From the UHGV virus genome UHGV-0282798: a stretch of 45,006 nucleotides of DNA. The stretch is one strand, 5' to 3'. The notes beneath the pieces were generated by a model that was not told where the DNA came from, did no database searches, and was given only the letters and a program-made list of their open reading frames with translations. How positions within the stretch are numbered: the stretch's first letter is position 1; every line of letters starts with the position of its first letter. The DNA is from a virus. Below, piece after piece: positions 3,550-32,179 of this stretch. Position numbers and translations under genes: made by a program.

Positions 3550-3588
3550 CTTCTCTACTCCGTTCTCGTTCTCGTTGTCGATGAAGTA

Positions 3589-3617
3589 AATATAATAGGG
3601 TCTACGGTAATAGTCAA
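3589..3617 (-). promoter_or_regulatory. Sigma70-type promoter (minus strand): TTGACT-17-TATATT
   Basis: Reverse complement of 3589-3617 reads TTGACT attaccgtagaccctat TATATT; sits between tandem terminators and the next minus-strand gene. Confidence 0.35.
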
Positions 3618-3639
3618 CTAGTCATTACAGAAAATAGAT

Positions 3640-4939: not shown

Positions 4940-4998
4940 GATGAATCCTCCAGGTGCGTATTAAGTATGCAGTAACTGGAGGATACCACGGGTAGGAA

Positions 4999-6335: not shown

Positions 6336-6468
6336 CCTGGAACAGGAAGTGCGCGTTCTCTGCGGCGCGTGCCGCTGACTGGCACGCCTCCATCGAGTAA
6401 AACGTTTCCGATGTCGCCAGGTGCATCTGGCCTGCGGACAGTACCCATATAAATAAGATGCTGGTCAT
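6265..6468 (-). CDS. Small protein with N-terminal hydrophobic segment
   Basis: MTSILFIWVLSAGQMHLA looks like a signal or TM segment. Confidence 0.4.
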   Translation of the reverse strand: MTSILFIWVLSAGQMHLATSETFYSMEACQSAARAAENAHFLFQGDKPNDSEVRAICSPKRLGKQEK

Positions 6469-7034
6469 TTCAGTTTAGCCCCGCAATCAAGACACTTTTT
6501 AGTAAAACCCGGCGCAAAGCCTTTGCGCAAACCGACGGTATTAGCGTGTTGGCAATCGCTCGATTCCGATTCTTGCTTACCGCATTTAGCGCAAATGAAG
6601 TAGTCCCCTTTTTCATCTAGCACCCAATCATGCTCGCATTCCTGAGTATCTTCCTTACGGCAATCAGATTGCTCAGGTTCATGCGGAAACTTATTAGCTA
6701 GAACGGATACCTGCCTACCGAGTAAATTAAGCGCTTTCTGCAGCTCTGTCTCCCGCGCCGACGCATCGCGTAACTGATTCTTAAGTGACTGCAACTCATG
6801 CGCCAGGTCTTCGCACTGGTTGTTATTTACCTGCTGACGTAAACTGTCTTTCAGCGCTCGTATTTCGTCGTCCTTACCGGCGATATGCTGCTGTAGGTTG
6901 TGAATTACCTGCTTGACCTCATCAAGGTCGGATATCCGCACAGACACATCGAAAGATGTGACATCTTTCTTATTTACCTGCTGCCGTAGCTGGTCAATCA
7001 GGTACTCGAATACTACATCATTTGCGTTCTGCAT
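6465..7034 (-). CDS. Coiled-coil protein with C-terminal Zn-ribbon, paralog B
   Basis: Long heptad-like region then SDCRKEDTQECEHDWVLDEKGDYFICAKCGKQ plus a second CxxC (CLDCG). Confidence 0.55.
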   Translation of the reverse strand: MQNANDVVFEYLIDQLRQQVNKKDVTSFDVSVRISDLDEVKQVIHNLQQHIAGKDDEIRALKDSLRQQVNNNQCEDLAHELQSLKNQLRDASARETELQKALNLLGRQVSVLANKFPHEPEQSDCRKEDTQECEHDWVLDEKGDYFICAKCGKQESESSDCQHANTVGLRKGFAPGFTKKCLDCGAKLK

Positions 7035-7161
7035 TTTTAGCCTCTCTGTTCATAAGTTCCAGTAATAACCTAGCTGTTTGGCGCTCACGGGTGTTTCTCG
7101 GTGACGAGGCGTAGAACTCTAGCACCTCGCGTGATGGTTCTTGTGCGGTTTTACTGTTCAC
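7018..7161 (-). CDS. Small basic ORF (47 aa, GTG start)
   Basis: Own translation (M)NSKTAQEPSREVLEFYASSPRNTRERQTARLLLELMNREAKNAERK; RBS GGAGAG before GTG 7159-7161; just downstream of promoter 7191-7219. Weak. Confidence 0.25.
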   Translation of the reverse strand: MNSKTAQEPSREVLEFYASSPRNTRERQTARLLLELMNREAKNAERK

Positions 7162-7190
7162 TCTGTCTCTCCACTCGTTGGTGTAAATGA

Positions 7191-7219
7191 ATAGTAGCCT
7201 ATTCTATCTCAGTGTGCAA
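7191..7219 (-). promoter_or_regulatory. Sigma70-type promoter (minus strand) TTGCAC-17-TACTAT with AATAG-N4-CTATT dyad
   Basis: Reverse complement: TTGCAC (7214-7219), 17-bp spacer, TACTAT (7191-7196); dyad AATAGTAGCCTATT at 7190-7203. Confidence 0.45.
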
Positions 7220-7525
7220 GTAAATTTTATTGGCGTGTTATAGAATCTATGAACGACAGTAACGCGCGCTCCGCTTCTGCTTCTCTTTCTTCAAGCGACC
7301 AGGTAGCGGATTCCTCTGTTGCCGTTGCTATATCTGTTTTCACATCAATCATCGTGTTGATTAACGCGATTAGTCGTTCGGCCTGTTCTTTAGTAATCAT
7401 TGTTGCATCTCCTGCAATAGTCGCTTCTATTGTTGCGTTTGGTGAAATAGAACAAAAATGAGAAAAATGATACGCTGCTGTGTAGCAGCGTAAGTCACAA
7501 AGCCAAATAGTAACCTATTGACCTG

Positions 7526-7735
7526 TTACACCAGCGATGGTGGCTCGGGTAACGGCATCCGGTGAGTTACATTAGCTTCATCGTAATAGGATGAGTCATA
7601 CGAATGAATCTCCCAACTAACATAATCTCCATATCGGAGATAGTACCCCTCGTGGACTTGTCTTAAGTCGTCGTAAACAAGTACGTCCTCGCCTTCTTCC
7701 GGCATCCGCTCACTACACTTAATCCACTCACCCAT
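7526..7735 (-). CDS. DUF551-like small protein
   Basis: WIKCSERMPEEGEDVLVYDD ... VTHRMPLPEPP matches the pattern I recall for the DUF551 family. Confidence 0.45.
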   Translation of the reverse strand: MGEWIKCSERMPEEGEDVLVYDDLRQVHEGYYLRYGDYVSWEIHSYDSSYYDEANVTHRMPLPEPPSLV

Positions 7736-7885
7736 ATCTCACCTCGGATTTGCAACAGACAACACACCAGCTTTCCACGCCCGCCACGCGAGACGAGTCT
7801 TAACGTTCAGGTACTCTTTCTTCGAACCCTTATTAACCGGCAGACCCTCGACGACGGCCCACCGTTCGAATGCTTCTCTCATAAC

Positions 7886-8131
7886 TTAGTCCTCATCATC
7901 TTCTAAGTCGGGGTACACTATGAAATCGCCAAGCCTTTGCAACTCTGCACCTGCCATAAAATAACCAAGTGCTTCGGCTCTTTCGGAATCTGTTTTAAAC
8001 TCAGACAGAGGATATCTTTCGTAGAACTTGTTAATTAATAGCGCATGGTCAAACTTAGTTGCATCATAATTTTTCATAACTAATAACTCCGATAACTTTA
8101 GATTTCTCGCGCCGGGTGCAACCATGCTCAA
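7886..8131 (-). CDS. Small protein with acidic C-terminal tail (PDLEDDED)
   Basis: ORF track; C-terminus repeats the DLEDD motif found in the SSB tail and the primase linker; start may be internal (MKNYDATK). Confidence 0.4.
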   Translation of the reverse strand: MSMVAPGARNLKLSELLVMKNYDATKFDHALLINKFYERYPLSEFKTDSERAEALGYFMAGAELQRLGDFIVYPDLEDDED

Positions 8132-8315
8132 TGTAGTAGCGCGCCTGCTTGACGCTTTCGCAACGCGTCAACGTAACCCACCAGAACAACCCGACCCTCA
8201 CCTGCACGGCGGGTGTAATTCGTTTCTCACCGAAGGCGGTAACCCACTCTTCGCTAACTATGCGGTATTTACTTAACACGGCAACCTCCCTCAGAGTCGT
8301 CGGCACGAGCATCAT
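8064..8315 (-). CDS. Hypothetical protein
   Basis: ORF track; co-directional early gene chain. Confidence 0.4.
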   Translation of the reverse strand: MMLVPTTLREVAVLSKYRIVSEEWVTAFGEKRITPAVQVRVGLFWWVTLTRCESVKQARYYIEHGCTRREKSKVIGVISYEKL

Positions 8316-8478
8316 GATTCGATGCCGTTCGGATAGAACGCAAACTATGTAGCATTCTCCCGGCGGAAGCTGTGATAATCGTTACCCCATCTAAAATAAC
8401 AACCTCGTACCTGTTTACCCGGAAATGCACTTTCTCCAGTTTATGATGTTTCAGCTCTTCAAATAATTCTTCCATCAC
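8269..8478 (-). CDS. Hypothetical protein
   Basis: ORF track (GTG start in track; ATG at 8473-8475 is more likely). Confidence 0.4.
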   Translation of the reverse strand: MMEELFEELKHHKLEKVHFRVNRYEVVILDGVTIITASAGRMLHSLRSIRTASNHDARADDSEGGCRVK

Positions 8479-8672
8479 TTCACCCCTTTGAATTTAAAAT
8501 TGTTGCCGATGAGTTCTAAATACTCCGCGCTTACAGTTGCATGGCCGCCAGTAAATACATTGCGAAGTTTACAAATGGCAGCACTGCCTCTGTTGTTGGT
8601 GGAAAATACGGAGTACAAACATCCCGACTTTTTACTACGGACCAACTGACCCTTCTTAAACATAACCCTCAC
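8475..8672 (-). CDS. Hypothetical protein
   Basis: ORF track; likely start ATG 8661-8663 (MFKKGQLV) with GAGG RBS. Confidence 0.4.
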   Translation of the reverse strand: MRVMFKKGQLVRSKKSGCLYSVFSTNNRGSAAICKLRNVFTGGHATVSAEYLELIGNNFKFKGVK

Positions 8673-8697
8673 CCCTCTGTCTCGTTTCGATAAGTGA

Positions 8698-8726
8698 ATA
8701 GTATCCTATTATGTTTGGGTGTGCAA
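8698..8726 (-). promoter_or_regulatory. Sigma70-type promoter (minus strand) TTGCAC-17-TACTAT with dyad
   Basis: Reverse complement: TTGCAC (8721-8726), 17 bp, TACTAT (8698-8703); dyad AATAGTATCCTATT at 8697-8710; about 30 bp upstream of the first minus-strand early gene. Confidence 0.45.
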
Positions 8727-8899
8727 GAGAATAGTTACGTTGCCGTTGTGATTCTTTCGTTTCTTAAAAGAGTACGCAACGCAGGGGGTGGGCATTAGCC
8801 CACCCCAGCGGAGTGAAGTACTCTCTACCTTGCTCACGGCAACTATAGAAACTTTTAATTATCAGTGACTTGGGTATTTAGGCGGGATTAACAATAGAC

Positions 8900-9000
8900 T
8901 ATGGCCCTTCCGAATGCGGGCAGCGACACTACACTCAGTGCTAACGCACCGCTCCGTTCTCCTGCCGCACCGCGGTCGCTTGTTCATACTTCACAAGCTC
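8900..9000 (-). ncRNA. Conserved structured 5-prime leader RNA or small RNA (putative), copy 1
   Basis: About 100 nt downstream of the repeat promoter are conserved between copies with compensatory changes in two hairpins; the only ORF through it is not conserved in copy 2. Confidence 0.35.
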
Positions 9001-9006
9001 AGGTGG

Positions 9007-9035
9007 AGCTTAGCATATTTTTAGTGAAAAGTCAA
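9007..9035 (-). promoter_or_regulatory. Sigma70 promoter inside repeat copy 1 (minus strand): TTGACT-17-TGcTAAGCT
   Basis: Reverse complement: -35 TTGACT (9030-9035), 17-bp spacer, extended -10 TGC TAAGCT (9007-9015); identical in copy 2. Confidence 0.5.
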
Positions 9036-9083
9036 TATCAGTAGCATCTTTTGTATCTTAGTAACTTTGTTGTTGCTTTTTGC

Positions 9084-9112
9084 TTGAAGTACCATTATCT
9101 TAGGTACTTCAA
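9084..9112. promoter_or_regulatory. Perfect 10-bp inverted repeat (TTGAAGTACC / GGTACTTCAA)
   Basis: 9084-9093 and 9103-9112 with a 9-nt loop, about 20 bp upstream of the ATG of the first plus-strand replication-block gene. Confidence 0.4.
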
Positions 9113-9130
9113 CAACTGAGGGGTATTTAG

Positions 9131-9274
9131 ATGAAGATTTGCCAGATGTGTAGGAAAGAAAAAGAAGAAGGTGCATTCCTTAAACGTTATGACAGAAAAG
9201 GAACGCGTAGTTATTGCCGTGAATGTTTCAATGCATACCGCAAACAATTAAGAGAGGCTAAGAAGAATGCATAA
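9131..9274 (+). CDS. Small Zn-ribbon protein (47 aa)
   Basis: Own translation MKICQMCRKEKEEGAFLKRYDRKGTRSYCRECFNAYRKQLREAKKNA (CxxC ... CxxC); GAGGGG RBS; below ORF-track cutoff. Confidence 0.4.
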   Translation: MKICQMCRKEKEEGAFLKRYDRKGTRSYCRECFNAYRKQLREAKKNA

Positions 9275-9716
9275 ATACTTAGATGAGTTTCTGAAATCGT
9301 TAAACCTGATATTAGCCGAGAACCCGGGAGCGTCACTGCATGACATTAAATCGGCAATAGAACTCGACGGGCCAATTAGTGCCGTGATTTCATTGCTTGG
9401 GTATTTCGGGGAGATAGACCGTGTTTATGATGGTAGTAAATATCTGTATTGGGTTAAAGGCGGTAAGCCATCCAATGTTATATCAGTTCCTTTTCCCGAG
9501 AAGGGCCAACTTACGGAGTTACAAAAACTAGTCTATGGAAAATGTCTTGAACAGCAAGGCCGACGCATCACCCCTAGTGCGGTATACGCCCTGGTAAAAG
9601 ATGACGTCACCAATCTTGGTGCTGTCTGTACCGCTATGCGCGGACTTTCTAAAAAAGGTTTGTTGATTAAGGTGTGTGATGGCGTGTATGCTCTTGCAGT
9701 ACCAAACGCCAAATAA
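9267..9716 (+). CDS. Winged-helix-like DNA-binding protein
   Basis: ORF track; two similar half-sequences (LHDIKSAIELDG... and SAVYALVKDDVTNLGAVCTAMRGLSKKGLL) suggest tandem winged-helix folds. Confidence 0.45.
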   Translation: MHKYLDEFLKSLNLILAENPGASLHDIKSAIELDGPISAVISLLGYFGEIDRVYDGSKYLYWVKGGKPSNVISVPFPEKGQLTELQKLVYGKCLEQQGRRITPSAVYALVKDDVTNLGAVCTAMRGLSKKGLLIKVCDGVYALAVPNAK

Positions 9717-9774
9717 AAGAAAGCCCCGACGCGGTGAACGCCGAGGCCAAATTACTTGCTGAAGGAAATACAAC

Positions 9775-12042
9775 ATGTCCGATGTAATTTTATCCTACTC
9801 GTGGTCCCGTCGCAACGCGCGGGCAGAGAAAAAGGATATAAACGTCAGAACTACACACACGGCAACACTGGACGACCTGAAAGAGTTAATCCAGCCGCTC
9901 GATGCTGTTCGTGACGGAATTAACCCTAAGACAGCACCTGGCTATATTACTGCCGCGTGCGACTCAACGCACAGCACCGTAAAAGACCCGGAAACCGGTG
10001 ACTTTAAGCAAGCGCGTAAGGGTTTTTTCTATCGTTGCGACGCATCTGTAAGCAAATCGTCACTGGCGTATCTGGACTTCGACAGCGCAACACCGGAAGA
10101 GTATCAGGAAGCGGTGCGCCTGGTTAAGCGCAGCCGCCAGGCTATGTGCCTCTACACCACGGCATCGCATACCGATGAGTCTCCTCGCTTTCGCGTCGTC
10201 ATGCCGCTGGGACGCCCGGTCGAAGGTGGCGACATCATCCGCGTTCGTCATGGATTGCTCGGGCACTTCTTCAAAGGCATGGGTGCTGACCGCAGCGGGT
10301 TCACTCTGTCACAGCCGATGTACCTGCCGCCGGTTGGCGCTACCGTTATCTGGTCACGCCGCAATGACCTGATTGACCCGGACGAGTTACTGGAGGGTAT
10401 CCCCGCCGTTGACGTCAGCAGCGCATCGGATTACCAGATTCCGGAAGAACTGCGCACCGCGTTTACTGATGCGTTCGAGGTACTGGCGTTTGAGTACGGC
10501 GGCATCATGACGCCACGCGGCCTTAAGATGCCAGCTACACCGGAACACGCAGAAAACTACAGCGATCCAACACCGCGCCTGGACGACTTCCTATTGTGCT
10601 TTCCGCGCGAAGGGTACGAAGCGCCTAACGTAACCATGATTCACGACACCGACATTACCGCAACCGAAGGCATGTCGCCGAAGGAGGTGTGGAAGTATGC
10701 GTGTGATGCGACCGGGTTGCCGTTCAGTGAAGTCGCTGAGGCAATCGGCTGGGGTGCGCGTGAATCAGTTTCATGCAGCCTGGACGACCTGGAAGACGAT
10801 GAGGACTCAGAGGAGGACGAGTTACCAGAACCGGTAAAGGCTGATTTCGTCGTTGAAGGGTACATGCCGTCAGATTGTATCTGGGATATTGTCGGGGAAT
10901 CTGGCACGTACAAATCATTCTATACGCTGGGTATGATGTATCTCAGCGCCGCTGGTTACCGGTTTGCGGGGGCGGATACCCAGCGTTGTCACCATTTCTA
11001 TATCGATGGTGAGGGTGGTGCAGCCACACGTACACGTATCGATGCCCTCGCGGCTAAATATGGCGAGGAAGGTAAAGATTACGTACATGTCATCGATATG
11101 GGCGAAGTCGGCAAACTGAAAAGCCTGATTAAGTTAATGCGCGAAACCGCTGGCGATGAGCCAATAGGCATGGTTGCATTCGACACCCTTAACCAGACGC
11201 TGGCCCTGACAATCGATAAGTTCGACGAGAACAGTTCATCGACGGCAATCGGCATGGGTAAAGTTATCGCCATCCTGAAAGAAGTACGCGACGCAACTAA
11301 AGCCGCAGTAGGCGTTGTTCACCATACGCCGAAAGGCGGGAAGAAAGCACGTGGTAGCGGGGCACTGTATGCGGGTGTTGACGTGGAACTGACAATTGAG
11401 CGTGCAACCGACCGTCAGATAAACGTATATCACTCGAAATTTAAGCACGGGCCTCAACAGAAGACTGTTGGCATGGTTCTGGAGTCCGTACAGTTCCGTG
11501 AAGCCCCGCCGCCGAAACAGTACCGCGCGGTTGAGTTCCTGGGTAGCACAGAGGAATACGGCACAATCGTTAACCTCGACCTGCCGGAGCCGCACAAGGC
11601 GCTTGTGTTGATGCCGTGGGGCTTTGAACCGTTCAAGACCGACGAGGAGAAAGAGCGGGAAGAAGGGCTGACAAAGGAAGGTAAAGAAAACGTACGTAAA
11701 ACCGTAGAGAACGCCGTCAACAGCTCAGAAGCCACAATACTGGCAGCGTTTGAACTGGCGGAAGGAACCTACAACGGAAACGAAGGTATCACAGTAGCCG
11801 CAGCGAATAAGCTGGCACAGTCCGACCCCAACGCAAAGGCGTTTAACTCCAAAGAAGCCATAGAACGCGGGAAGATTAAGAAAATGGTTGAGGCCGGGTA
11901 TCTTGTACCGGGGACTGACGAAAACAATCAGATAATACCGGGCCGTTACAGACTTAACACCAGGATAACAGATAACAAGATTCCGAAGACAATATACGAA
12001 CCGAATGAAATGCTGACAGTGACCGAGGAGGATTTGGAATAG
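9775..12042 (+). CDS. Primase-polymerase (AEP) fused to RepA/DnaB-like helicase
   Basis: N-terminal AEP-like motifs (LDFDS, TTASHT); C-terminal P-loop GESGTYKS and Walker-B-like VAFDTLNQ; acidic linker DDLEDDEDSEEDE; C-terminus TVTEEDLE. Confidence 0.7.
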   Translation: MSDVILSYSWSRRNARAEKKDINVRTTHTATLDDLKELIQPLDAVRDGINPKTAPGYITAACDSTHSTVKDPETGDFKQARKGFFYRCDASVSKSSLAYLDFDSATPEEYQEAVRLVKRSRQAMCLYTTASHTDESPRFRVVMPLGRPVEGGDIIRVRHGLLGHFFKGMGADRSGFTLSQPMYLPPVGATVIWSRRNDLIDPDELLEGIPAVDVSSASDYQIPEELRTAFTDAFEVLAFEYGGIMTPRGLKMPATPEHAENYSDPTPRLDDFLLCFPREGYEAPNVTMIHDTDITATEGMSPKEVWKYACDATGLPFSEVAEAIGWGARESVSCSLDDLEDDEDSEEDELPEPVKADFVVEGYMPSDCIWDIVGESGTYKSFYTLGMMYLSAAGYRFAGADTQRCHHFYIDGEGGAATRTRIDALAAKYGEEGKDYVHVIDMGEVGKLKSLIKLMRETAGDEPIGMVAFDTLNQTLALTIDKFDENSSSTAIGMGKVIAILKEVRDATKAAVGVVHHTPKGGKKARGSGALYAGVDVELTIERATDRQINVYHSKFKHGPQQKTVGMVLESVQFREAPPPKQYRAVEFLGSTEEYGTIVNLDLPEPHKALVLMPWGFEPFKTDEEKEREEGLTKEGKENVRKTVENAVNSSEATILAAFELAEGTYNGNEGITVAAANKLAQSDPNAKAFNSKEAIERGKIKKMVEAGYLVPGTDENNQIIPGRYRLNTRITDNKIPKTIYEPNEMLTVTEEDLE

Positions 12043-12070
12043 GTAAAAAGAAAGGGGCGTTAAGCCCCTT
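12041..12070 (-). terminator. Intrinsic terminator for the repressor gene
   Basis: Stem AAGGGGC (12052-12058) / GCCCCTT (12064-12070); on the minus strand it is followed by UCUUUUUACC. Lies between the convergent primase and repressor genes. Confidence 0.5.
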
Positions 12071-12275
12071 CACCCAACGCCAGCCACTTGGCGTCTACTT
12101 GCAGCACTTCCGCCAGTTTAAACAGCGTTGCCGGGCGGACGTCCTGAGTTACCCCGAGTGCAAGCTGGTTAATCGCGCCCTGGGAAACGCCCGCAAGGAC
12201 CGCCAGACGGCGCTGGGAGATACCGAGTTCTTTACGGCGTTGCTCTACACGGATGCCTAGTTCAGATGGTTGCAT
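12060..12275 (-). CDS. XRE-family HTH transcriptional regulator (Cro/CI-like)
   Basis: 71 aa; QRRKELGISQRRLAVLAGVSQGAINQLALG is a classic XRE HTH. Confidence 0.75.
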   Translation of the reverse strand: MQPSELGIRVEQRRKELGISQRRLAVLAGVSQGAINQLALGVTQDVRPATLFKLAEVLQVDAKWLALGEGA

Positions 12276-12305
12276 GTCAATTACTCCTTAGTCAGTTGAT
12301 ATGTG

Positions 12306-12368
12306 AATAGTACCATATTAATTATTTTAGAAAAGCCCATTGACACGTGAATAGTTCGCTATTATAGT
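12306..12368 (+). promoter_or_regulatory. Promoter TTGACA-17-TATAGT with two AATAG-N4-CTATT dyads
   Basis: -35 TTGACA 12340-12345, -10 TATAGT 12363-12368; dyads AATAGTACCATATT (12306-12319) and AATAGTTCGCTATT (12350-12363); divergent from the repressor start at 12275. Confidence 0.5.
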
Positions 12369-12400
12369 TAGCCTATACCAAACGAGAGGAGAGAAACAAA

Positions 12401-12550
12401 ATGATTAACAACCGCAAAGCAAAGGTTCTGTTGGGCCTTGATATCGCATTTGGAACTAAAGAAACCGCACGCTATCGCGTAAGCAACAATCGTGTTGGCT
12501 TCTTCGACAAAGCTACAGGCCAGTTAGTTAAAACCGTTAAATATAAATAA
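12401..12550 (+). CDS. Small ORF (49 aa)
   Basis: Own translation MINNRKAKVLLGLDIAFGTKETARYRVSNNRVGFFDKATGQLVKTVKYK; RBS GAGAGGAGAGAAACAAA; first gene after the promoter. Confidence 0.4.
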   Translation: MINNRKAKVLLGLDIAFGTKETARYRVSNNRVGFFDKATGQLVKTVKYK

Positions 12551-12565
12551 ACAGGAGAGAAACAA

Positions 12566-13066
12566 ATGTTAGACCAATTCTTAAAATTACTGGAACGTTT
12601 CGTAGTTGCACATGAACTGATTGCTGCGAACAGCGCGAAAGAACCTGTGATTGGCTCCCCGGAACATTTTGCTGAGTTTTGTAAGTTGCAGGGTGTAAGT
12701 GTAAAAGAGGCTTTAACTAAACCTTCAAAAGAAATCCCGGTCGAAGGTGAAGACATCGTCGACACTAAACCGGCAGAAGAAGAGAAGCCAAAACGTAAGA
12801 CGCGTAAAGCTAAAGTAGAGGAACCAACGCCAGAACCGGAAGAAGAGAAAGAAGAAGTCGATTACCAGTCTCTTCGTGACCAGATTCAGGCTATCGATGA
12901 TGCAATTAACGAAGGTCCGAGTGATGCTGCGTGTGACGATTCTGATGAACTGCTGGAAGAGTTCACCGGTAAGAAGATGAAGATTGCCGCGATTAAAGAC
13001 GAAGACCTGGCCGAGTACCTGGAACGCCTCACGGCAATCAAGAACAAGTATTTCGAAGAAGAATAA
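12566..13066 (+). CDS. Acidic hypothetical protein
   Basis: ORF track; RBS AGGAGAGAAACAA nearly identical to that of the preceding small ORF; Glu/Asp-rich with a K/R patch. Confidence 0.5.
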   Translation: MLDQFLKLLERFVVAHELIAANSAKEPVIGSPEHFAEFCKLQGVSVKEALTKPSKEIPVEGEDIVDTKPAEEEKPKRKTRKAKVEEPTPEPEEEKEEVDYQSLRDQIQAIDDAINEGPSDAACDDSDELLEEFTGKKMKIAAIKDEDLAEYLERLTAIKNKYFEEE

Positions 13067-13121
13067 CTACTTAACTTATGGTGCCATCATACGTGAGGGC
13101 ACCAAACTGAGGGTCGGAATT

Positions 13122-13610
13122 ATGGATTGGCATGAGATATTCGACTATGACCGCGCCACAGGAAAATTGTATTGGAAAATACAGCCATCTCATGCGGTTA
13201 AGCCGGGTGAAGAGGCTGGAAGTGTGGGAACTGAGGGTTATGTAGATGTTGGTTTTGCAGGCCGTTTATATAAGGCGCATCGCATTATATGGGATATGAT
13301 GAACACTGACGATAAACTAACGCCGAACCACCAAATAGACCACATAAACCATATCAGAACGGATAATAGGATAGAAAATTTAAGGAAGGTACACCACTGT
13401 GACAACGCCAAAAATCAAAGCATGCGCGTAGACAATACCTCAGGTGTCGCGGGAGTATACTTCGACCGAACTAATAGAAAATGGAGGGCCCGCATTAGGG
13501 CGAGTGGCACGACCATTTGTTTGGGGAGATACGATAGTTTAGAAGAAGCCGCATGCGCACGCCAGAAAGCAGAAGAGATTTACGGGTTTCACAAAAATCA
13601 TGGGGGGTAA
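13122..13610 (+). CDS. HNH-AP2 homing-type endonuclease
   Basis: HQIDHINHIRTDNRIENLR (HNH) followed by AGVYFDRTNRKWRARIRASGTTICLGRYDSLEEAACARQKAEEIYG (AP2). ORF track starts at 12984; ATG 13122 (MDWHEIF) with RBS avoids overlap. Confidence 0.75.
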   Translation: MDWHEIFDYDRATGKLYWKIQPSHAVKPGEEAGSVGTEGYVDVGFAGRLYKAHRIIWDMMNTDDKLTPNHQIDHINHIRTDNRIENLRKVHHCDNAKNQSMRVDNTSGVAGVYFDRTNRKWRARIRASGTTICLGRYDSLEEAACARQKAEEIYGFHKNHGG

Positions 13611-13613
13611 AAG

Positions 13614-14855
13614 ATGATTTTAAAAGAACGCGGCGGCAATAACGACGTACATGCCTTACTGTCGCCGTCAGGGGCTAAAAAGTGGCTAAGTTGCGCTGCA
13701 TCACTGGCATGTGAAAAAGATATTCCCAACACGTCTGGTAAAGCTGCCGTTACAGGGACCGCGTGTCACACCATAGCGGAGATGCACCTTAACCAGTACA
13801 TCAAAGGCCCTGCGTTGCCGTTAGAGCGTGAAGTTGGTGCTTATGTTCTGGACGAGGGTAAGGGCCAGATTAAGGCGCTAATCAGCCCGATGAAAGGCGC
13901 GGTACTGATTACGGCGGACATGATTGAGCAGGTGCGCAAGTACACCGACTACTGCAAAGCGATTATCGACGTTGCCACTTACGCCAAGCTGGAGATGCGC
14001 GTCAATCTTACTGAGGTATTGCATCCGGGATATGAAGGCGTTGAGACGTTCGGAACCGCCGACCTTGTTGCCGTGCAGGAACTGGCAAACACTGACGAGC
14101 ACATGTTAATTATCGGCGACCTGAAAACAGGACGGCATCGTGTCGAAGCGAAAGAAAACAAGCAGCTTATGCTTTACGCTCTAGGCGTTTATCGCCGACT
14201 CAAGAGACGCTATAACATCACAGTTGTGCGCCTGGTCATCTTCCAGCCGTACGCTGGCGGGGCGTCGGAGTGGGACATCTTGGTTGAAGGTCTGGAACTG
14301 TTCGCTAAGTTTGCACAGAAACGTGCGCTGTTAGCCCTTGATGCGTATTTCCGTGGCAAGAAGAATCTGAAAGCGTCGGACTTCAGGCCGTCGGTCGATG
14401 GTTGTCAGTGGTGCCGGTTCTCTGAACAATGCGCCGCTCGTACAAAGACGGTTAATTCTGTACTGGCGGAAGAACTGGAAGACGACTTTGCGCTGGAACT
14501 TACGCCGGAGCAACTCGTCGCCGAGTATGAGAAGTTGCCGCTGTTGCGCCAGCACATCGACAAGGTTGAGAAAGCGATGGTCGCCGCATTGCATTCTGGT
14601 AAGAAAGTTCCTGGGTACAAGCTGGTTGAAGGTAAGATGGGCAATCGTGCGTGGAAAGACGCGGAGAAAGTAACAGAACTCTACGGCGACAAGCTGACTA
14701 AAGAAGTGCTCATGACGCCAACCGAAGCTGTTAAAGTGCTACCGGAAGAAGAACTGAAAGACTTCATCACACGTAAGCCCGGTGCCCCATGCGTCACAAC
14801 GGCAGACGACAAACGTCCTGAGTGGAATCAGGTAACAGAGGAGGATTTAGAATGA
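13614..14855 (+). CDS. PD-(D/E)XK exonuclease, Cas4/RecB-like
   Basis: Motifs GTADLVAV, IGDLKTG, QLMLYALG and the Cys cluster DGCQWCRFSEQC (C-x2-C-x5-C) plus an N-terminal Cys; C-terminus ends TEEDLE. Confidence 0.7.
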   Translation: MILKERGGNNDVHALLSPSGAKKWLSCAASLACEKDIPNTSGKAAVTGTACHTIAEMHLNQYIKGPALPLEREVGAYVLDEGKGQIKALISPMKGAVLITADMIEQVRKYTDYCKAIIDVATYAKLEMRVNLTEVLHPGYEGVETFGTADLVAVQELANTDEHMLIIGDLKTGRHRVEAKENKQLMLYALGVYRRLKRRYNITVVRLVIFQPYAGGASEWDILVEGLELFAKFAQKRALLALDAYFRGKKNLKASDFRPSVDGCQWCRFSEQCAARTKTVNSVLAEELEDDFALELTPEQLVAEYEKLPLLRQHIDKVEKAMVAALHSGKKVPGYKLVEGKMGNRAWKDAEKVTELYGDKLTKEVLMTPTEAVKVLPEEELKDFITRKPGAPCVTTADDKRPEWNQVTEEDLE

Positions 14856-15088
14856 TTCGTAAAATGTTCGGAGTAATTGGCGGTTTTGTAGCGTTTTTAA
14901 CCTATCACGCTCTAATACTGCCGCTGGTTATAATGCTTCTTCCGTTTTTCGTGTATACCGCCTTTAAGTGCAGGAAAATAGAACTAGAGGATTTGGTGTA
15001 CGCCAAAGAAGTTGAGTGGGTGCGTAATTTGAAGTGGCCCAACGTATACCTAACTATAGTTGAGAAAATAACTGGCTGGAAGGGTTGA
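14852..15088 (+). CDS. Small membrane protein
   Basis: ORF track begins at 14822; ATG 14852 has RBS GAGGAGG. Hydrophobic segments FGVIGGFVAFLTYHALILPLVIMLLPFFVYTAF. Confidence 0.4.
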   Translation: MIRKMFGVIGGFVAFLTYHALILPLVIMLLPFFVYTAFKCRKIELEDLVYAKEVEWVRNLKWPNVYLTIVEKITGWKG

Positions 15089-15113
15089 CACCTGAATAGC
15101 AAGCTATTATAGT
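15085..15113 (+). promoter_or_regulatory. Promoter TTGACA-17-TATAGT with perfect dyad
   Basis: -35 15085-15090, -10 15108-15113; dyad AATAGCAAGCTATT 15095-15108; about 55 bp upstream of the SSB gene. Confidence 0.5.
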
Positions 15114-15167
15114 TCTAATCACTGGCCGGGCAGCTTCCCGGAGTAAACTGAAAAGCGAGAAATCAAG

Positions 15168-15794
15168 ATGGGCATTAAACTGAATCTGCGTAAAGTAAAC
15201 ACTGCATGGGTTAACGTATTCGAACGCGAAAAAGACCGTGAAAACGATGATGGCTCAATCACTAAAGGCCAGTACAGCGCGACTATTATCCTGCCGTCTG
15301 ACCATGCTCAAATCGACGCACTCTACGACACTGTTTACGCGGTAGTTGAGGAAGCGTTAGGTGCAGCGGCTGCCGAGAAGTGGATGAAGTCCAACTACGG
15401 CGAGGGTAAGCACATGGATAAATGCGCGATTAAAGACATTGCTGAGCGTGACAATCCGTTTGAAGACTTCCCGGAAGGCTTCTACTTCAAAGCGAAGGCA
15501 CAGAAACAGCCGCTGATTGTGACCTCTAAAAAAGGTGAGACTCAGGTAGAGCAGGACTTCAACGTAGACGGCGAACAGATTGAAGGCGAACAGGTTTACA
15601 GCGGCTGCGTTGCTAACGTAAGCGTTGAAATCTGGTTCAGCCAGAAATATAAAGTCCTCGGCGTTAACCTGCTGGCAATTAAATACGTCGGTGAAGGTAA
15701 AGCGTTCGGTGGTTCTAAAGTCGCCGCGAGCGTCGATGACCTGGAAGACGACGATGAAGATGAAGCACCACGCCGCGAACGTCGTCGTCGCTAA
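15168..15794 (+). CDS. ssDNA-binding protein, T7 gp2.5-like (putative)
   Basis: N-terminal pattern KLNLRKVNTAWVNVFE ... YSATIILPSDHAQIDAL resembles the gp2.5-like (DUF2815) family as I recall it; acidic tail VDDLEDDDEDE. Confidence 0.5.
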   Translation: MGIKLNLRKVNTAWVNVFEREKDRENDDGSITKGQYSATIILPSDHAQIDALYDTVYAVVEEALGAAAAEKWMKSNYGEGKHMDKCAIKDIAERDNPFEDFPEGFYFKAKAQKQPLIVTSKKGETQVEQDFNVDGEQIEGEQVYSGCVANVSVEIWFSQKYKVLGVNLLAIKYVGEGKAFGGSKVAASVDDLEDDDEDEAPRRERRRR

Positions 15795-15814
15795 TATCTG
15801 AATCAATTTAACTA

Positions 15815-15839
15815 AGGCCCTTCATTGGGCCTTTTTATT
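15815..15839 (+). terminator. Intrinsic terminator
   Basis: Stem AGGCCC (15815-15820) / GGGCCT (15827-15832), loop ttcatt, then TTTTATT. Confidence 0.6.
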
Positions 15840-15853
15840 AAGGGTACAAAATA

Positions 15854-16009
15854 ATGTTTTTCTGTAAGCACGTTTATCGCTATATGAAACCACTTCCGTG
15901 GTATGCAGATGAGTACCGGGCCGGGTACAGACATGTGTGGATTTGCCGTGATTGTATGAAAATAAGATTAAGCGAAACGAAGGCACTGGATTTAAGGAAA
16001 AAGAAATGA
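15854..16009 (+). CDS. Small Cys/His-containing ORF (51 aa)
   Basis: Own translation MFFCKHVYRYMKPLPWYADEYRAGYRHVWICRDCMKIRLSETKALDLRKKK; stop overlaps the polymerase ATG (ATGA). Confidence 0.3.
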   Translation: MFFCKHVYRYMKPLPWYADEYRAGYRHVWICRDCMKIRLSETKALDLRKKK

Positions 16010-18255
16010 GTTACCTGTTCTTAGACTTTGAAACATTCTCCGAAGCCGATTTGAAGAAAGTCGGTTCCTACGCTTACGCCGAACATCCGTCAACCGAAGT
16101 GCTTATCTGTACATACGCTTTTGACGACGCGCCGGTGCAGGTATGGGATTGCACAGACGGCAGCGACATGCCTGGGGATTTGCATCGCGCGTTACGCCGT
16201 CTGGTGAAGCCAAACAGTCGCATCAAGATGGTGTGGCATAACGGTGGACTTTTCGATAGGCTCATCATGAAGCACTGCTGGGGCTTTGATATTCCGGTAA
16301 GCAACACCATTGATACGATGATTTGGGCGTTTCGTCACGCGTTGCCGGGTTCTCTTGATGCACTGTGCGAAGTGTTGGGCGTATCTGCGGACAACGCAAA
16401 AGACAAACGCGGCAAGGCGCTGATTCAGCGTTTCTCTAAACCGACGCCGAAGAACTACAAAATCCGCCGTTACACCGCAGAAACACACCCGGACGAGTGG
16501 GCACTGTTCATCAAGTACGCCGTTAGCGACATCACTGCGATGCGTGAAGTATTCCATAAGCTGCCGCGGTGGGGTAACTCCGAGTTCGAGGACCGCGTAC
16601 TGGAACTGGACCAGTTAATCAATGACCGGGGGTTTAAGGTTGACGTAGCGCTGGCGGAAGCCGCGATTGCAGCCGTGGAGAAACACAAAGCGCAGTTACA
16701 AGAAGAAGCCCAACGCAAATACGGCGGCTCGCTTACGGGTAAAGACTTTCTGCCTATTCTGCGCGAACTAGCTCCTGCGCACCGCATCCACAACGCACAG
16801 AAGTCTACGCTTAACGACCTGCTGGCGGACGATGATTTACCGGACGACGCACGCACGATTATCGAAATGCGCCTCGGGGCCGCGTCCACAGCGTCAACGA
16901 AATATAACCCGCTACTGTTGGGCCGCTCTTCTGACGACCGACGTCGCGGTTGTATCCAGTACGGCGGGGCCAAGCGTACGTTACGGTTTGCGGGTAAAGG
17001 CTTCCAGCCGCAGAACCTGGCGCGCGGGTACTATCACGACGACCCGAAGAATAAAAAGAAGAAAGTACGTTATGACTGGATGTCAGAGAAGGACTGGTGG
17101 AGAGTAACACACCCATTGTCCTACGGAATCGACCTGTTGTTTAAAGGCCGTGCACACCGCCGTTTTGATGTAGCCAAACTAACGGCATCGACGGTGCGTA
17201 GCTGCATCATACCGGAAGCAGGACATAAGTTTGTCGTCGCCGATTACTCTAACGTTGAAGGCCGTGGTTTGGCGTGGCTGGCTGGAGAAGAAACCGCGCT
17301 CGATACGTTCCGCGCCGGGCTGGATATTTACTGCGTAACCGCGGGTAAGATGTTCGGAATGGACCCTGATTACATTCTCGAAAGCCGTAGTGACCTACGC
17401 CAGATTGGTAAAGCCTGCGAACTGGGTCTCGGCTACGCAGGCGGCGTAGGTGCTTTCGTTCAGTTTGCTAAGAACCTCGGCTTAAACCTTGTTGATATGG
17501 CAAAAACAATGGACGGGACATTCCCCGACCATATATGGGCCGCTACTGCACGCGGCTATGAATGGGCACGTATTCAGGAAGCCAAGCGACCTCCGCGGCC
17601 AGGTGAAAAGGATGACCGACCATCGTATATTCTTGATAAGAAAGTGTGGCGTACCTGCGACGCTATCAAGCGCATGTGGCGTGAGTCACACCCGGAAACA
17701 GTAGCTTTCTGGCGTGATATTGAAGACGCGGCTATGGCGGCTATCCGCAACCCTGGCAAAGAGTTCACCGCAGGCCCGCGCGGCGTTAAGTTTTCGCGTA
17801 ACGTGGAGACAGACAACAACGGCAACAAAGTCGCTGGTTGGTGGTTGCGCATGACGTTGCCGTCAGGTCGCGTTATGTCCTACCCGGGCGTCGGGTTAAG
17901 CGTGTCGAAAGAAACAGACGAAGATGGAAAAGTGTCTACTAACGTGCGCATCAAGTACCAGGGCGAGAACCAGCTAACCCGTCAGTGGGGTTTCCAATAC
18001 ACCTACTCTGGTAAACTGGTGGAAAACTGCACTCAGGCGCTATGCCGTGATTTGCTGGCTAATGCGCTGCTGAACGTCGAAGCAAACGGCTATCCAATTG
18101 TACTTCATGTCCACGATGAGATTATCTGCGAGACACCAGACACTCCCGAGTACACGGTGGCTGAACTTGAGCGGTTGATGTGCGAATTACCGGAATGGGC
18201 CGAGGGGTTCCCTCTTGTAGCGGAAGGTCAGGAGTTAAAACGTTATGCTAAGTAA
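16006..18255 (+). CDS. DNA polymerase, family A, with 3-5 exonuclease domain
   Basis: Exo motif FLDFETFS; Pol A motif A DYSNVEGR, motif B RQIGKACELGLGYAGG, motif C VLHVHDEI. Track ORF begins at an in-frame TTG (15952); ATG 16006 has an AAGGA RBS. Confidence 0.85.
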   Translation: MSYLFLDFETFSEADLKKVGSYAYAEHPSTEVLICTYAFDDAPVQVWDCTDGSDMPGDLHRALRRLVKPNSRIKMVWHNGGLFDRLIMKHCWGFDIPVSNTIDTMIWAFRHALPGSLDALCEVLGVSADNAKDKRGKALIQRFSKPTPKNYKIRRYTAETHPDEWALFIKYAVSDITAMREVFHKLPRWGNSEFEDRVLELDQLINDRGFKVDVALAEAAIAAVEKHKAQLQEEAQRKYGGSLTGKDFLPILRELAPAHRIHNAQKSTLNDLLADDDLPDDARTIIEMRLGAASTASTKYNPLLLGRSSDDRRRGCIQYGGAKRTLRFAGKGFQPQNLARGYYHDDPKNKKKKVRYDWMSEKDWWRVTHPLSYGIDLLFKGRAHRRFDVAKLTASTVRSCIIPEAGHKFVVADYSNVEGRGLAWLAGEETALDTFRAGLDIYCVTAGKMFGMDPDYILESRSDLRQIGKACELGLGYAGGVGAFVQFAKNLGLNLVDMAKTMDGTFPDHIWAATARGYEWARIQEAKRPPRPGEKDDRPSYILDKKVWRTCDAIKRMWRESHPETVAFWRDIEDAAMAAIRNPGKEFTAGPRGVKFSRNVETDNNGNKVAGWWLRMTLPSGRVMSYPGVGLSVSKETDEDGKVSTNVRIKYQGENQLTRQWGFQYTYSGKLVENCTQALCRDLLANALLNVEANGYPIVLHVHDEIICETPDTPEYTVAELERLMCELPEWAEGFPLVAEGQELKRYAK

Positions 18256-18611: not shown

Positions 18612-18892
18612 CCCCGGAAGGCAAGATTCAGAAATACGCAAAAGAGAGGTTCGAGGCCCTGGGCGGCCTCGTTAGAAAATTGTCGTACGAAAATAGAGTA
18701 GGCGCTCCTGACCTGCTGGTGATTCTCCCCTGGAGCATCGTCTGGTTCGTCGAGGTGAAGAAAGACGAAAACACGAAGCCAGACCCGCACCAGCTACGTG
18801 AGCACGAGCGGATGCGCAAACGCGGTGCAAATGTTTTTGTCGTTGGTTCGTTTAAACAGGTTGACGACCTAATAGCGAACTATTATAGTTAG
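18608..18892 (+). CDS. VRR-NUC domain nuclease
   Basis: GAPDLLVIL ... FVEVKK ... Q pattern typical of VRR-NUC. Track ORF 18593; ATG 18608 (MTPEGKIQ). Confidence 0.55.
   Translation: MTPEGKIQKYAKERFEALGGLVRKLSYENRVGAPDLLVILPWSIVWFVEVKKDENTKPDPHQLREHERMRKRGANVFVVGSFKQVDDLIANYYS
18861..18889 (+). promoter_or_regulatory. Promoter TTGACG-17-TATAGT with dyad
   Basis: -35 18861-18866, -10 18884-18889; dyad AATAGCGAACTATT 18871-18884; lies inside the 3-prime end of the VRR-NUC gene. Confidence 0.45.
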
Positions 18893-18922
18893 GCACACAC
18901 CAACAATATAAGGAATTGAGAA

Positions 18923-32120: not shown

Positions 32121-32149
32121 TTGCACACCCCAATATAATAGGGTACTAT
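32121..32149 (+). promoter_or_regulatory. Promoter TTGCAC-17-TACTAT with dyad (island promoter)
   Basis: -35 32121-32126, -10 32144-32149; dyad AATAGGGTACTATT 32137-32150; same TTGCAC/TACTAT class as 7191 and 8698. Confidence 0.5.
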
Positions 32150-32179
32150 TCACCTACACCAACAATGGAGGGATTTAAA

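What the first reader, a model, noticed from the sequence alone, without database searches (positions are those of the whole stretch)
12306..12368. A GTGAATAG-N4-CTATTATAG dyad is embedded in at least six near-consensus promoters
The 14-bp palindrome AATAG-N4-CTATT (usually extended to GTGAATAGTAnCCTATTATAG) occurs at 7190-7203, 8697-8710, 12306-12319, 12350-12363, 15095-15108, 18871-18884 and 32137-32150, always intergenic or at gene ends. Each overlaps the -10 of a promoter with a 17-bp spacer. There are two architectures: TTGAC(A/G)-17-TATAGT (12340, 15085, 18861, plus strand) and TTGCAC-17-TACTAT followed by conserved GTGTGCAAG (7191 and 8698 on the minus strand, 32121 on the plus strand). 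Two dyads flank the divergent promoter region of the XRE-family repressor (12060-12275), the pattern expected for an autoregulated repressor with multiple operators. In an apparently lytic genome this looks like a single regulator controlling early and middle promoters.
Basis: seen in the sequence. Interest (0 to 1): 0.65.

Follow-up and report, generated by a model that had tools for sequence, protein, structure and literature searches.

The report
Cro-like repressor operators in phage promoters
A 14-bp inverted repeat sits inside the early and middle promoters of this lytic E. coli phage and is most likely the binding site of the phage's own small 434-Cro-like repressor, an ordinary kind of switch that an earlier paper mislabelled as a phage RNA-polymerase promoter.

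Summary
AATAG-N4-CTATT occurs 7 times exactly in the 45-kb window against 0.03 expected.

The window is a complete Kagunavirus genome (Guernseyvirinae). The dyad overlaps six sigma-70-type promoters in two registers. A third register occurs in phage Jersey, and a fourth for the related Cornellvirus dyad.

In 38 distinct relatives, the half-sites upstream of the XRE gene never vary (0 of 20 columns). The central four bases do (4 of 8), and so does the other intergenic DNA (46 of 86). That is the signature of an operator for a dimeric helix-turn-helix protein.

The best candidate binder is the 71-aa XRE protein (12060-12275). It has an HTH_3 domain, and its closest solved relative is the 71-aa phage 434 Cro, which also uses 14-bp operators. 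It is the only recognised HTH regulator kept in every genome that carries the dyad. Binding is inferred, not shown, and a small HTH_17 protein found in most relatives is a rival.

The motif was already listed for phage fBC-Eco01 as a "phage RNAP promoter". I rate this a new member of a known kind, of moderate interest.

The parts
12060..12275 (-). XRE / 434-Cro-like regulator gene (71 aa). It is monocistronic and is the proposed binder of the dyad.
   Evidence: Pfam HTH_3, E 1.2e-12. The best PDB sequence hit is phage 434 Cro (71 aa), E 1.8e-6 over residues 6-68. The AlphaFold2 model has five helices and mean pLDDT 79, and Foldseek matches 434 Cro at 40% identity with TM 0.76-0.82. Orthologues are present in Kagunavirus, Jerseyvirus and Cornellvirus-like genomes.
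12050..12081 (-). Terminator-like hairpin at the end of the XRE gene.
   Evidence: Terminator scan, 10-pair stem followed by a T run.
12306..12319 (.). Imperfect dyad AATAGTACCATATT in the XRE gene's own promoter or leader region. Proposed to be a lower-affinity autoregulatory operator.
   Evidence: One mismatch. The imperfect form is invariant in 38 distinct relatives, with only the centre varying. On the minus strand it contains TACTAT in the class-B arrangement. An alternative XRE promoter, TTCACG-16-TAAAAT at 12351->12324, would place this site in the leader.
12340..12368 (+). Class-A promoter of the replication operon: TTGACA-17-TATAGT, with the dyad at 12350-12363 in the spacer and touching the -10.
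   Evidence: 11 of 12 consensus match. Half-sites are invariant and the centre varies at 3 of 4 positions in 38 relatives. The distance from the -35 to the dyad differs by 1 nt between strains.
15085..15113 (+). Class-A promoter upstream of the ssDNA-binding (DUF2815/Enc34) gene and the DNA polymerase gene, with the dyad at 15095-15108.
   Evidence: 11 of 12. The orthologous Jersey promoter keeps both half-sites while the centre changes from CAAG to TTAA.
18861..18889 (+). Class-A promoter TTGACG-17-TATAGT inside the 3' end of the VRR-NUC gene, with the dyad at 18871-18884. It drives the hyp38-to-helicase block.
   Evidence: 10 of 12. Between Kagunavirus and Jersey orthologues, 0 of 10 half-site bases differ, against 8 of 19 other bases between the -35 and the -10.
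8697..8726 (-). Class-B promoter of the early-left operon: TTGCAC (8726-8721), 17-bp spacer, TACTAT (8703-8698). The dyad at 8697-8710 covers the -10 and the start region.
   Evidence: Read from the sequence. Conserved in 25 distinct Kagunavirus sequences, with variation only in the dyad centre. The Jersey orthologue has TTGACA and an 18-bp spacer.
7190..7219 (-). Class-B promoter TTGCAC (7219-7214), 17-bp spacer, TACTAT (7196-7191), with the dyad at 7190-7203. It drives 7034->6465 and the lysis genes.
   Evidence: Relatives carry the same roughly 85-bp cassette in front of many different first genes.
32121..32150 (+). Class-B promoter TTGCAC-17-TACTAT of the metallophosphoesterase operon, with the dyad at 32137-32150. 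It is divergent from the tail-assembly-chaperone gene.
   Evidence: In the Jersey orthologue (16957) the dyad sits 7 nt after the -35 instead of 10, and the -10 is TATTAT.
7506..7519 (.). Orphan exact dyad between the DUF551 gene stop and a terminator, with no promoter hexamers around it.
   Evidence: Most Kagunavirus relatives have AATCCCAAACTATT here, so its function is doubtful.
3589..3622 (-). Promoter TTGACT-17-TATATT after the lysis-gene terminator, with an imperfect dyad ACTAGTTGACTATT (3609-3622) centred on the -35. Possibly a weak operator.
   Evidence: 10 of 12. One-mismatch site. An imperfect dyad over the -35 is kept at the orthologous promoter in Jersey (AATAGTTGACTAGT) and in VSiP (AATAGTTGCATAAT).

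Best explanation
The 14-bp dyad AATAG-N4-CTATT is an operator. A dimer of the phage's 71-aa 434-Cro-like XRE protein (12060-12275) binds it, one helix-turn-helix per 5-bp half-site, without reading the central four bases.

Every operator overlaps a core element of a host sigma-70 promoter. It lies in the spacer and at the edge of the -10 in the three strong replication promoters. It lies over the -10 and the start site in the three weaker TTGCAC/TACTAT promoters. So a bound dimer keeps RNA polymerase off.

Proposed sequence of events. Early in infection there is no XRE protein and these promoters fire. As XRE accumulates, it turns down the early-left, replication and metallophosphoesterase operons. 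Through the conserved imperfect site at 12306, and the neighbouring site at 12350, it also turns down its own gene. This is a Cro-type shut-off in a phage with no lysogeny genes.

Shown here: the dyad exists, its half-sites are under selection, it overlaps promoters in several registers, and the protein has the 434-Cro fold.

Inferred: that XRE is the binder, that binding represses, and the timing.
For: 1. Far above chance. 7 exact sites against 0.03 expected, and 6 of 7 lie in the 7.7% of the genome that is non-coding.

2. Found across relatives. It is the top dyad in fFiEco02 and in Jersey and in nearly all of the Kagunavirus/Jerseyvirus IMG/VR loci examined, tied for top or within one count in the few others.

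3. Selection on the half-sites. In 38 distinct sequences upstream of the XRE gene, half-site columns vary in 0 of 20, centres in 4 of 8 (p = 0.003) and other intergenic columns in 46 of 86 (p = 2e-6).

4. Independent of promoter register.
- The dyad starts 4 nt after the -35 in class A, or 5 nt in many strains.
- It starts 7 nt after the -35 in Jersey 16957.
- It starts 10 nt after the -35 in class B.
- In VSiP 14869 that genus's related dyad (TATTA-N6-TAATA) lies downstream of the -10.
- The -10 is built from different parts of the dyad in each case.

5. The protein. XRE has an HTH_3 domain. Its best solved relative is 434 Cro, of the same length, and the modelled fold agrees. From established knowledge, 434 operators are 14 bp with conserved outer bases and an uncontacted centre.

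6. Arrangement. The XRE gene sits next to two dyads, in a divergent layout with the replication promoter.

7. No other candidate regulator found. No other Pfam HTH regulator appears among 38 other early or small ORFs.

8. Distribution of the protein. XRE is present in every dyad-bearing genome examined and also in the Cornellvirus-like phages. There the orthologous promoters carry a related dyad, AWTAG-N4-CTAWT with up to 1 mismatch: 12 sites against 3.6 expected in both VSiP and TS6.
Against: - There is no binding or transcript-mapping data for this phage group. The one Kagunavirus RNA-seq paper (PMC12645636) maps no promoters.
- The recognition helix is SQGAINQ in Kagunavirus, SQSLITH in Jerseyvirus and TQSAISH in Cornellvirus-like phages. 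The two genera that share the exact half-site therefore have the more different helices. This is not what a simple helix-to-half-site code predicts.
- The exact dyad's genus distribution (Kagunavirus and Jerseyvirus, but not Cornellvirus) matches the HTH_17 protein better than it matches XRE.
- The three class-B promoters match the sigma-70 consensus poorly, so they could need an activator rather than being repressed.
- The 7506 site has no promoter to regulate.
Confidence: 0.58

Rival explanations
1. The dyad is an operator, but the protein that binds it is the small HTH_17 (AlpA/Xis/MerR-like, 56-60 aa) protein that most Kagunavirus and Jerseyvirus genomes encode at the head of the primase operon. 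XRE would then do something else.
For: - HTH_17 is 76-100% identical across Kagunavirus and Jerseyvirus, which share the exact dyad.
- It is absent from the Cornellvirus-like genomes, which lack the exact dyad.
- XRE is only about 50% identical between the two genera that share the dyad, and its recognition helix has changed.
- An HTH-domain gene is among the four early genes in the K1B4 RNA-seq study (PMC12645636). That it is this HTH_17 protein is my inference from gene order.
Against: - This window, L007 and L027 lack HTH_17 altogether. They carry a 47-aa zinc-ribbon ORF and a 149-aa ORF in its place, yet keep 7, 6 and 3 exact dyads.
- The Cornellvirus-like phages keep a related dyad at the orthologous promoters without any HTH_17.
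- From general knowledge, proteins of this family do not typically bind 14-bp two-fold sites as dimers.
- No dyad pair flanks the HTH_17 gene in the way one flanks the XRE gene.
Confidence: 0.12
2. The repeat is not a protein-binding site. It is the shared core of a promoter cassette that spread by duplication and recombination, and it looks palindromic only because A/T-rich -10-like sequences on both strands are favoured.
For: - The conserved block is longer than the dyad. It includes the -35, an A/T-rich upstream stretch and an ACACCAAC(A/G)A...GGAG leader.
- The class-B cassette is found in front of many unrelated first genes in relatives, as expected of a recombination linker.
- The right half CTATT overlaps the -10 in every architecture.
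Against: - In class A the left half lies at about -27 to -23, where sigma-70 reads no bases, yet it is invariant, while the 3-4 bases next to it and the dyad centre vary freely.
- The dyad keeps its sequence while its register relative to the -35 and -10 changes.
- Kagunavirus and Jersey orthologues differ at 8 of 19 non-dyad positions but at 0 of 10 dyad positions at the 18861 promoter.
Confidence: 0.1
3. The dyad is bound by a host protein, or by an unrecognised phage protein with no detectable DNA-binding domain. It could act as an activator for the weak class-B promoters.
For: - The class-B hexamers match the consensus at only 7 of 12 positions (my count).
- About 25 small early ORFs have no Pfam match.
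Against: - No host regulator with this consensus is known to me (from memory, not tested).
- A site over the -10 and start site, or inside a 17-bp spacer, is a repressor position, not an activator position.
- A suitable phage HTH protein is encoded right next to two of the sites.
Confidence: 0.1
4. The motif is the promoter of a phage-encoded RNA polymerase, as it was labelled after a PHIRE search in phage fBC-Eco01 (PMC9825357).
For: The same seven 20-mers, with consensus tgAATAGTa-ccTATTat-T, are listed in that paper's Supplementary Table S2 as 'Phage RNAP promoter'.
Against: - No RNA polymerase gene is annotated in the close relative fFiEco02, and every large ORF of the window maps to an annotated replication or structural protein.
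- The oriented 20-mer points with transcription at three sites and against it at three others.
- It overlaps good sigma-70 hexamers with 17-bp spacers.
Confidence: 0.02

Closest known systems
Phage 434 Cro and its 14-bp operators (OR1-3, OL1-3)
   Same: - The protein is 71 aa, all helix-turn-helix, and is the closest solved relative by sequence (E 1.8e-6), with a matching fold.
- The operator is 14 bp and two-fold symmetric, with conserved outer 5 bp and a free central 4 bp.
- Operators overlap promoters.
- The gene sits beside a divergent promoter pair.
   Different: - Identity is only about 40%.
- The half-site is AATAG, not ACAAG/ACAAT.
- There is no partner CI repressor, no tripartite operator and no integrase.
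- Single operators are scattered over about seven promoters around a lytic genome, rather than being clustered at two control regions.
Lambdoid immunity switch (CI/Cro with PRM/PR)
   Same: A repressor gene transcribed divergently from the replication operon, with operators at both promoters and a weaker site at the repressor's own promoter.
   Different: There is only one regulator, and there is no lysogeny module. The two sites are 44 bp apart rather than adjacent, so bistability is not expected.
Restriction-modification controller (C) proteins such as C.AhdI
   Same: Small XRE-family dimers of about 70-80 aa that autoregulate through dyads at their own promoter. C.AhdI is among the top fold matches.
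   Different: C proteins control one operon through a paired C-box. Here a genome-wide set of promoters is involved.
PHIRE 'phage-specific promoters' reported for Kagunavirus fBC-Eco01 (PMC9825357)
   Same: It is the same motif at the same seven kinds of position, including the imperfect one beside the repressor gene.
   Different: That paper reads the motif as a promoter for a phage RNA polymerase. It notes neither the dyad symmetry nor the link to the adjacent repressor. The evidence here is against that reading.

Membership tests
XRE / 434-Cro-type HTH repressor with two-fold operators | HTH_3 (Cro/C1-type) DNA-binding domain | tested here: met
   Pfam PF01381, E 1.2e-12, residues 11-65.
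XRE / 434-Cro-type HTH repressor with two-fold operators | Five-helix fold of 434 Cro / 434 repressor N-terminal domain | tested here: met
   The model has helices at 5-17, 21-28, 32-39, 48-57 and 62-66, with mean pLDDT 79. Foldseek matches 2cro with TM 0.76/0.82 at 40% identity, and 1pra with TM 0.76.
XRE / 434-Cro-type HTH repressor with two-fold operators | Operator of about 14 bp with inverted half-sites and a sequence-free centre | tested here: met
   AATAG-N4-CTATT occurs 7 times. Half-site columns vary in 0 of 20 and centre columns in 4 of 8.
XRE / 434-Cro-type HTH repressor with two-fold operators | Operators overlap the promoters they control | tested here: met
   Six sites overlap a -10 or a spacer, and one imperfect site overlaps a -35.
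XRE / 434-Cro-type HTH repressor with two-fold operators | The protein binds the operator as a dimer | not testable with these tools
   This needs a gel shift or footprint, or a protein-DNA structure prediction.
XRE / 434-Cro-type HTH repressor with two-fold operators | Recognition helix and half-site change together across relatives | tested here: inconclusive
   Cornellvirus-like phages have both a diverged XRE (about 40% identity) and a diverged dyad. But Kagunavirus and Jerseyvirus share the half-site with different helices.
Lambdoid bistable immunity region | Two antagonistic repressors, tripartite operators and an integration module | tested here: not met
   One XRE gene. No second regulator was found among 38 early ORFs. 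No integrase is annotated in the relative. There are two sites, 44 bp apart.
Promoters of a phage-encoded RNA polymerase | A phage RNA polymerase gene, and a motif oriented with every downstream gene | tested here: not met
   No such gene in the annotated relative or in the mapped window. The oriented 20-mer is used in both directions.
MerR-type spacer operators | Dyad in an over-long (19-20 bp) spacer, and a MerR-family activator | tested here: not met
   Spacers are 17 bp, or 18 bp in some strains.

The most novel reading that the evidence does not exclude
A whole subfamily of strictly lytic siphophages (Guernseyvirinae) runs most of its early and middle transcription through one autoregulated Cro-like protein. 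Its operator is written into promoters in at least three registers. The same promoter-operator-leader cassette also serves as the conserved anchor at which unrelated accessory genes are swapped in, so any newly acquired gene is automatically placed under the phage's timing control.
Probability: 0.3. Interest if true: 0.55.

Novelty: new member of a known kind. Interest (0 to 1): 0.38.

Why it matters
- Kagunavirus and Jerseyvirus phages are widely isolated for therapy and food safety. Their genomes are routinely declared free of 'lysogeny genes' even though they carry a gene annotated as a repressor.
- Showing that this gene is a Cro-type timer for early promoters would explain why it is there.
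- It would correct the published 'phage RNA polymerase promoter' label.
- It would give annotators a simple operator and promoter model for several hundred genomes.
- It would provide a compact repressor/operator pair, with three strong and three weak promoters, for engineering these phages.
- It does not open a new kind of mechanism.

Tried and rejected
1. Helix-to-half-site covariation. I looked for clean covariation between the XRE recognition helix and the half-site across the three genera. The result is mixed and cannot be used as proof.

2. XRE homologues outside the subfamily. I looked for homologues with the same recognition helix, to test independent co-occurrence with the dyad. Every protein with at least 75% identity came from Guernseyvirinae-like contigs of about 42-45 kb. 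More distant IMG/VR relatives had no AATAG dyads.

3. Motif scan of IMG/VR. A scan for TGAATAG-N4-CTATTAT gave mostly single hits. All the multi-copy hits I could place were about 41-45 kb contigs already fetched as Kagunavirus-type loci; I did not go through the rest.

4. BLAST-anchored ortholog extraction. This failed for four promoters because their flanks are mosaic. It was replaced by anchoring on the XRE start codon.

5. Repeat search in the Cornellvirus phage VSiP. A PHIRE-like search found only terminators, so that genus has no tightly conserved promoter cassette.

6. Rfam. There were no hits in the window, so there is no known RNA behind the conserved leader or the long non-coding stretch at 8710-9130.

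7. Bidirectional-promoter symmetry of the 18-bp type. I considered and rejected it. By my own count from the sequence, the opposite-strand -10-like hexamers would put the start sites about 29 bp apart.

8. Host regulators recalled from memory (ArgR, Fur, CRP). Their boxes do not match. This was not tested with a tool.

Full report
**What the window is**

Megablast of 11000-16000 finds 455 phage records. The best are Kagunavirus (Guernseyvirinae) E. coli siphophages at about 90% identity. Mapping the proteins of phage fFiEco02 (NC_073316) onto the window accounts for almost every large ORF. It also shows that the window is a complete, circularly permuted genome cut inside the large terminase gene.

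The layout is as follows.
- An early-left block on the minus strand runs from 8672 down through the lysis genes.
- It continues into terminase and the head and tail genes, wrapping round to 34446.
- A plus-strand primase block covers 9131-12042.
- The lone minus-strand XRE gene is at 12060-12275.
- A plus-strand replication block covers 12401-21533.
- A small plus-strand operon at 32165-34249 is divergent from the tail genes.

**Checking the observation**

AATAG-N4-CTATT occurs exactly 7 times, at 7190, 7506, 8697, 12350, 15095, 18871 and 32137. The expectation is 0.03. With one mismatch allowed there are 11 matches against 1.06 expected. An unbiased count of all 5-N(0-10)-5 inverted repeats puts it first in the window.

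Six of the seven exact sites lie entirely in the 7.7% of the genome that is non-coding. The seventh lies in the last bases of the VRR-NUC gene.

**Promoter context**

Three sites sit in TTGAC(A/G)-17-TATAGT promoters at 12340, 15085 and 18861. These score 11, 11 and 10 of 12 and are the best plus-strand consensus matches in 1-20000. Here the dyad begins 4 nt after the -35, and its last T is the first T of the -10.

Three other sites sit in TTGCAC-17-TACTAT elements: 8726->8698 and 7219->7191 on the minus strand, and 32121-32149 on the plus strand. Here the dyad begins 10 nt after the -35, and the -10 is made of the dyad centre plus its right half. These match the consensus at only 7 of 12 positions, so 'near-consensus' is too generous for them. 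Each nevertheless stands directly upstream of an operon, with a Shine-Dalgarno sequence and a start codon following.

The 20-bp oriented consensus GTGAATAG-N4-CTATTAT points with transcription in the first class and against it in the second. That alone argues against a directional promoter for a phage polymerase.

A further promoter, TTGACT-17-TATATT at 3617->3589, carries a one-mismatch dyad centred on its -35.

The late region (20-45 kb) has no comparable intergenic promoter.

**Comparison with relatives**

The same dyad is the top inverted repeat in fFiEco02 (7 sites) and in Salmonella phage Jersey (4 exact sites plus imperfect ones at orthologous promoters). It is also the top repeat, alone or tied, in nearly all of the Kagunavirus-type and Jerseyvirus-type IMG/VR loci fetched through the XRE protein, and within one count of the top in the few others.

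At orthologous promoters the half-sites are kept while their surroundings change.
- At the 18861 promoter, Kagunavirus and Jersey differ at 8 of 19 non-dyad positions between the -35 and the -10, and at 0 of 10 dyad positions.
- At the Jersey orthologue of the 32121 promoter, the dyad sits 7 nt after the -35 and the -10 becomes TATTAT.
- In many Kagunavirus strains, one extra base separates the -35 from the dyad at the replication promoter.

The region upstream of the XRE start codon was extracted without reference to the motif from 40 Kagunavirus-type genomes, giving 38 distinct sequences. Variable columns were:
- 0 of 20 in the half-sites;
- 4 of 8 in the two centres;
- 46 of 86 in the remaining intergenic DNA.

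Fisher tests give p = 0.003 and p = 2e-6 respectively. The single mismatch of the 12306 site is itself invariant, which suggests a deliberately weaker site.

This pattern is what a dimeric DNA-binding protein imposes, and is not what RNA polymerase imposes: fixed 5-bp arms, a free 4-bp centre, and a position that slides relative to the hexamers.

**Which protein binds**

The XRE product is a 71-aa HTH_3 protein. Its best match among solved structures is phage 434 Cro, also 71 aa, aligned over residues 6-68. An AlphaFold2 model (pLDDT 79) has the five-helix fold and matches SinR-N, the 434 repressor and 434 Cro with TM about 0.76-0.82. From established knowledge, 434 operators are 14 bp with conserved outer bases and an uncontacted centre, the same geometry as here.

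The gene is monocistronic, with a terminator at its end. It is transcribed divergently from the replication promoter, with one dyad on each promoter. Among 38 other early or small ORFs, no other Pfam transcription-factor HTH appears; the only DNA-binding matches are NinH and AP2-HNH endonucleases.

Two facts cut the other way.

First, the recognition helix is SQGAINQ in Kagunavirus, SQSLITH in Jerseyvirus and TQSAISH in Cornellvirus-like phages. The two genera that share AATAG therefore do not share the helix.

Second, most Kagunavirus and Jerseyvirus genomes encode a small HTH_17 protein at the head of the primase operon. It is 76-100% identical across the two genera and absent from Cornellvirus-like genomes, which also lack the exact dyad.

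Against that rival there are also two facts. This window, L007 and L027 have no HTH_17 at all, with a 47-aa zinc-ribbon ORF and a 149-aa ORF in its place, yet they keep their dyads. And the Cornellvirus-like phages VSiP and TS6 carry a related dyad, AWTAG-N4-CTAWT with up to 1 mismatch, at 12 sites each against 3.6 expected. These sites are at the orthologous promoters and always have one inner G/C mismatch.

A homologous operator system therefore spans all three genera, and XRE is the only recognised HTH regulator that does too. I put XRE at roughly 0.6 as the binder and HTH_17 at roughly 0.1.

**Mechanism**

Inferred: operators inside a 17-bp spacer, or over the -10 and start site, block RNA polymerase. 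XRE would therefore act like Cro in lytic growth. It would turn down the early-left, replication and metallophosphoesterase operons as it accumulates, and limit its own synthesis through 12306 and 12350.

Two candidate XRE promoters exist. One is a class-B-like TACTAT with a poor -35. The other is TTCACG-16-TAAAAT at 12351->12324. Either one gives autorepression.

No integrase or second repressor is annotated in the relative, so a lysogenic switch is not expected.

**Literature**

The motif is not new as a repeat. For Kagunavirus fBC-Eco01, PHIRE found seven sites with consensus tgAATAGTa-ccTATTat-T. Among them is TGAATAGTACCATATTAATT, next to the repressor gene. The authors called them promoters for a phage-encoded RNA polymerase (PMC9825357). 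VB_EcoS-Golestan likewise reports seven PHIRE promoters (PMC7203180). The Jersey GenBank record annotates several of the same places as host-type promoters. Neither fBC-Eco01 nor Golestan mentions palindromes or operators in its main text (no matches for 'palindrom' or 'repressor' there), and none of the papers I searched was seen to link the motif to the XRE gene. A time-course RNA-seq study of Kagunavirus K1B4 maps no promoters (PMC12645636).

**Verdict**

The feature is real and conserved. It is very probably a repressor operator set of the 434-Cro type in a lytic phage subfamily. It is a new member of a known kind, useful for annotation and for correcting a published label, and moderately interesting.

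Noticed in passing
window 7150-7225 (cassette) and the gene starting at 7034; relatives L005-L070: The roughly 85-bp class-B cassette (A/T-rich upstream stretch, TTGCAC, dyad, leader, Shine-Dalgarno) is nearly identical across relatives. At the 7190 position it is followed by at least a dozen unrelated first genes and preceded by several unrelated sequences. It looks like a hypervariable accessory-gene slot anchored on a conserved promoter.
   Followed up: partly
window 12369-12400, 18890-18922, 32151-32164, 7150-7189(-), 8673-8696(-), 3560-3588(-): Downstream of most of these promoters there is a conserved leader, (AC)ACCAAC(A/G)A(G)...GGAG, running into the ribosome-binding site. It is also present in Jersey and in the Cornellvirus-like phages. 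Its function is unknown, and there is no Rfam match.
   Followed up: no
window 15814-15833, 21538-21557, 34422-34441 (partial matches at 38853, 41602, 43171): A nearly identical terminator hairpin, AAGGCCC(C)-loop-(G)GGGCCTT, is reused at the ends of several operons. At 34422 it scores as a terminator on both strands. The same hairpin recurs in fFiEco02, Jersey and VSiP.
   Followed up: no
window 8985-9035 and 41480-41535: A direct repeat of about 50 bp contains the hairpin AAGCTCaggtgGAGCTT followed by a T run. At the second locus, relatives (for example fFiEco02 around 5043-5600) carry an opposite-strand extra gene with its own dyad-bearing promoter. The window seems to have lost that gene and kept only a one-mismatch site at 41524.
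   Followed up: partly
window 9131-9716: The HTH_17 gene and its neighbour, found in most relatives at the head of the primase operon, are replaced here by a 47-aa CxxC...CxxC zinc-ribbon ORF and a 149-aa ORF with no Pfam or PHROG match. Two IMG/VR contigs, L007 and L027, share this replacement. By eye, the 149-aa ORF's sequence suggests two winged-helix-like halves.
   Followed up: partly
window 8710-9130: A stretch of about 420 bp between the early-left promoter and the primase operon has no convincing ORF. It contains a strong hairpin GGGGTGGGC-ATTA-GCCCACCCC (8785-8806). There is no Rfam hit. It could be an origin or an untranslated leader.
   Followed up: no
window 1-919 and 44690-45006: The large terminase is only 36% identical to that of fFiEco02, although the neighbouring portal is 98% identical. 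The packaging enzyme has therefore been exchanged in this lineage.
   Followed up: no
window 7506-7519: This exact dyad has no promoter. Read on the plus strand, it is followed by a degenerate copy of the class-B leader (ACACCAGCGA). It may be a relic of an inverted promoter cassette. It is polymorphic among Kagunavirus genomes.
   Followed up: partly
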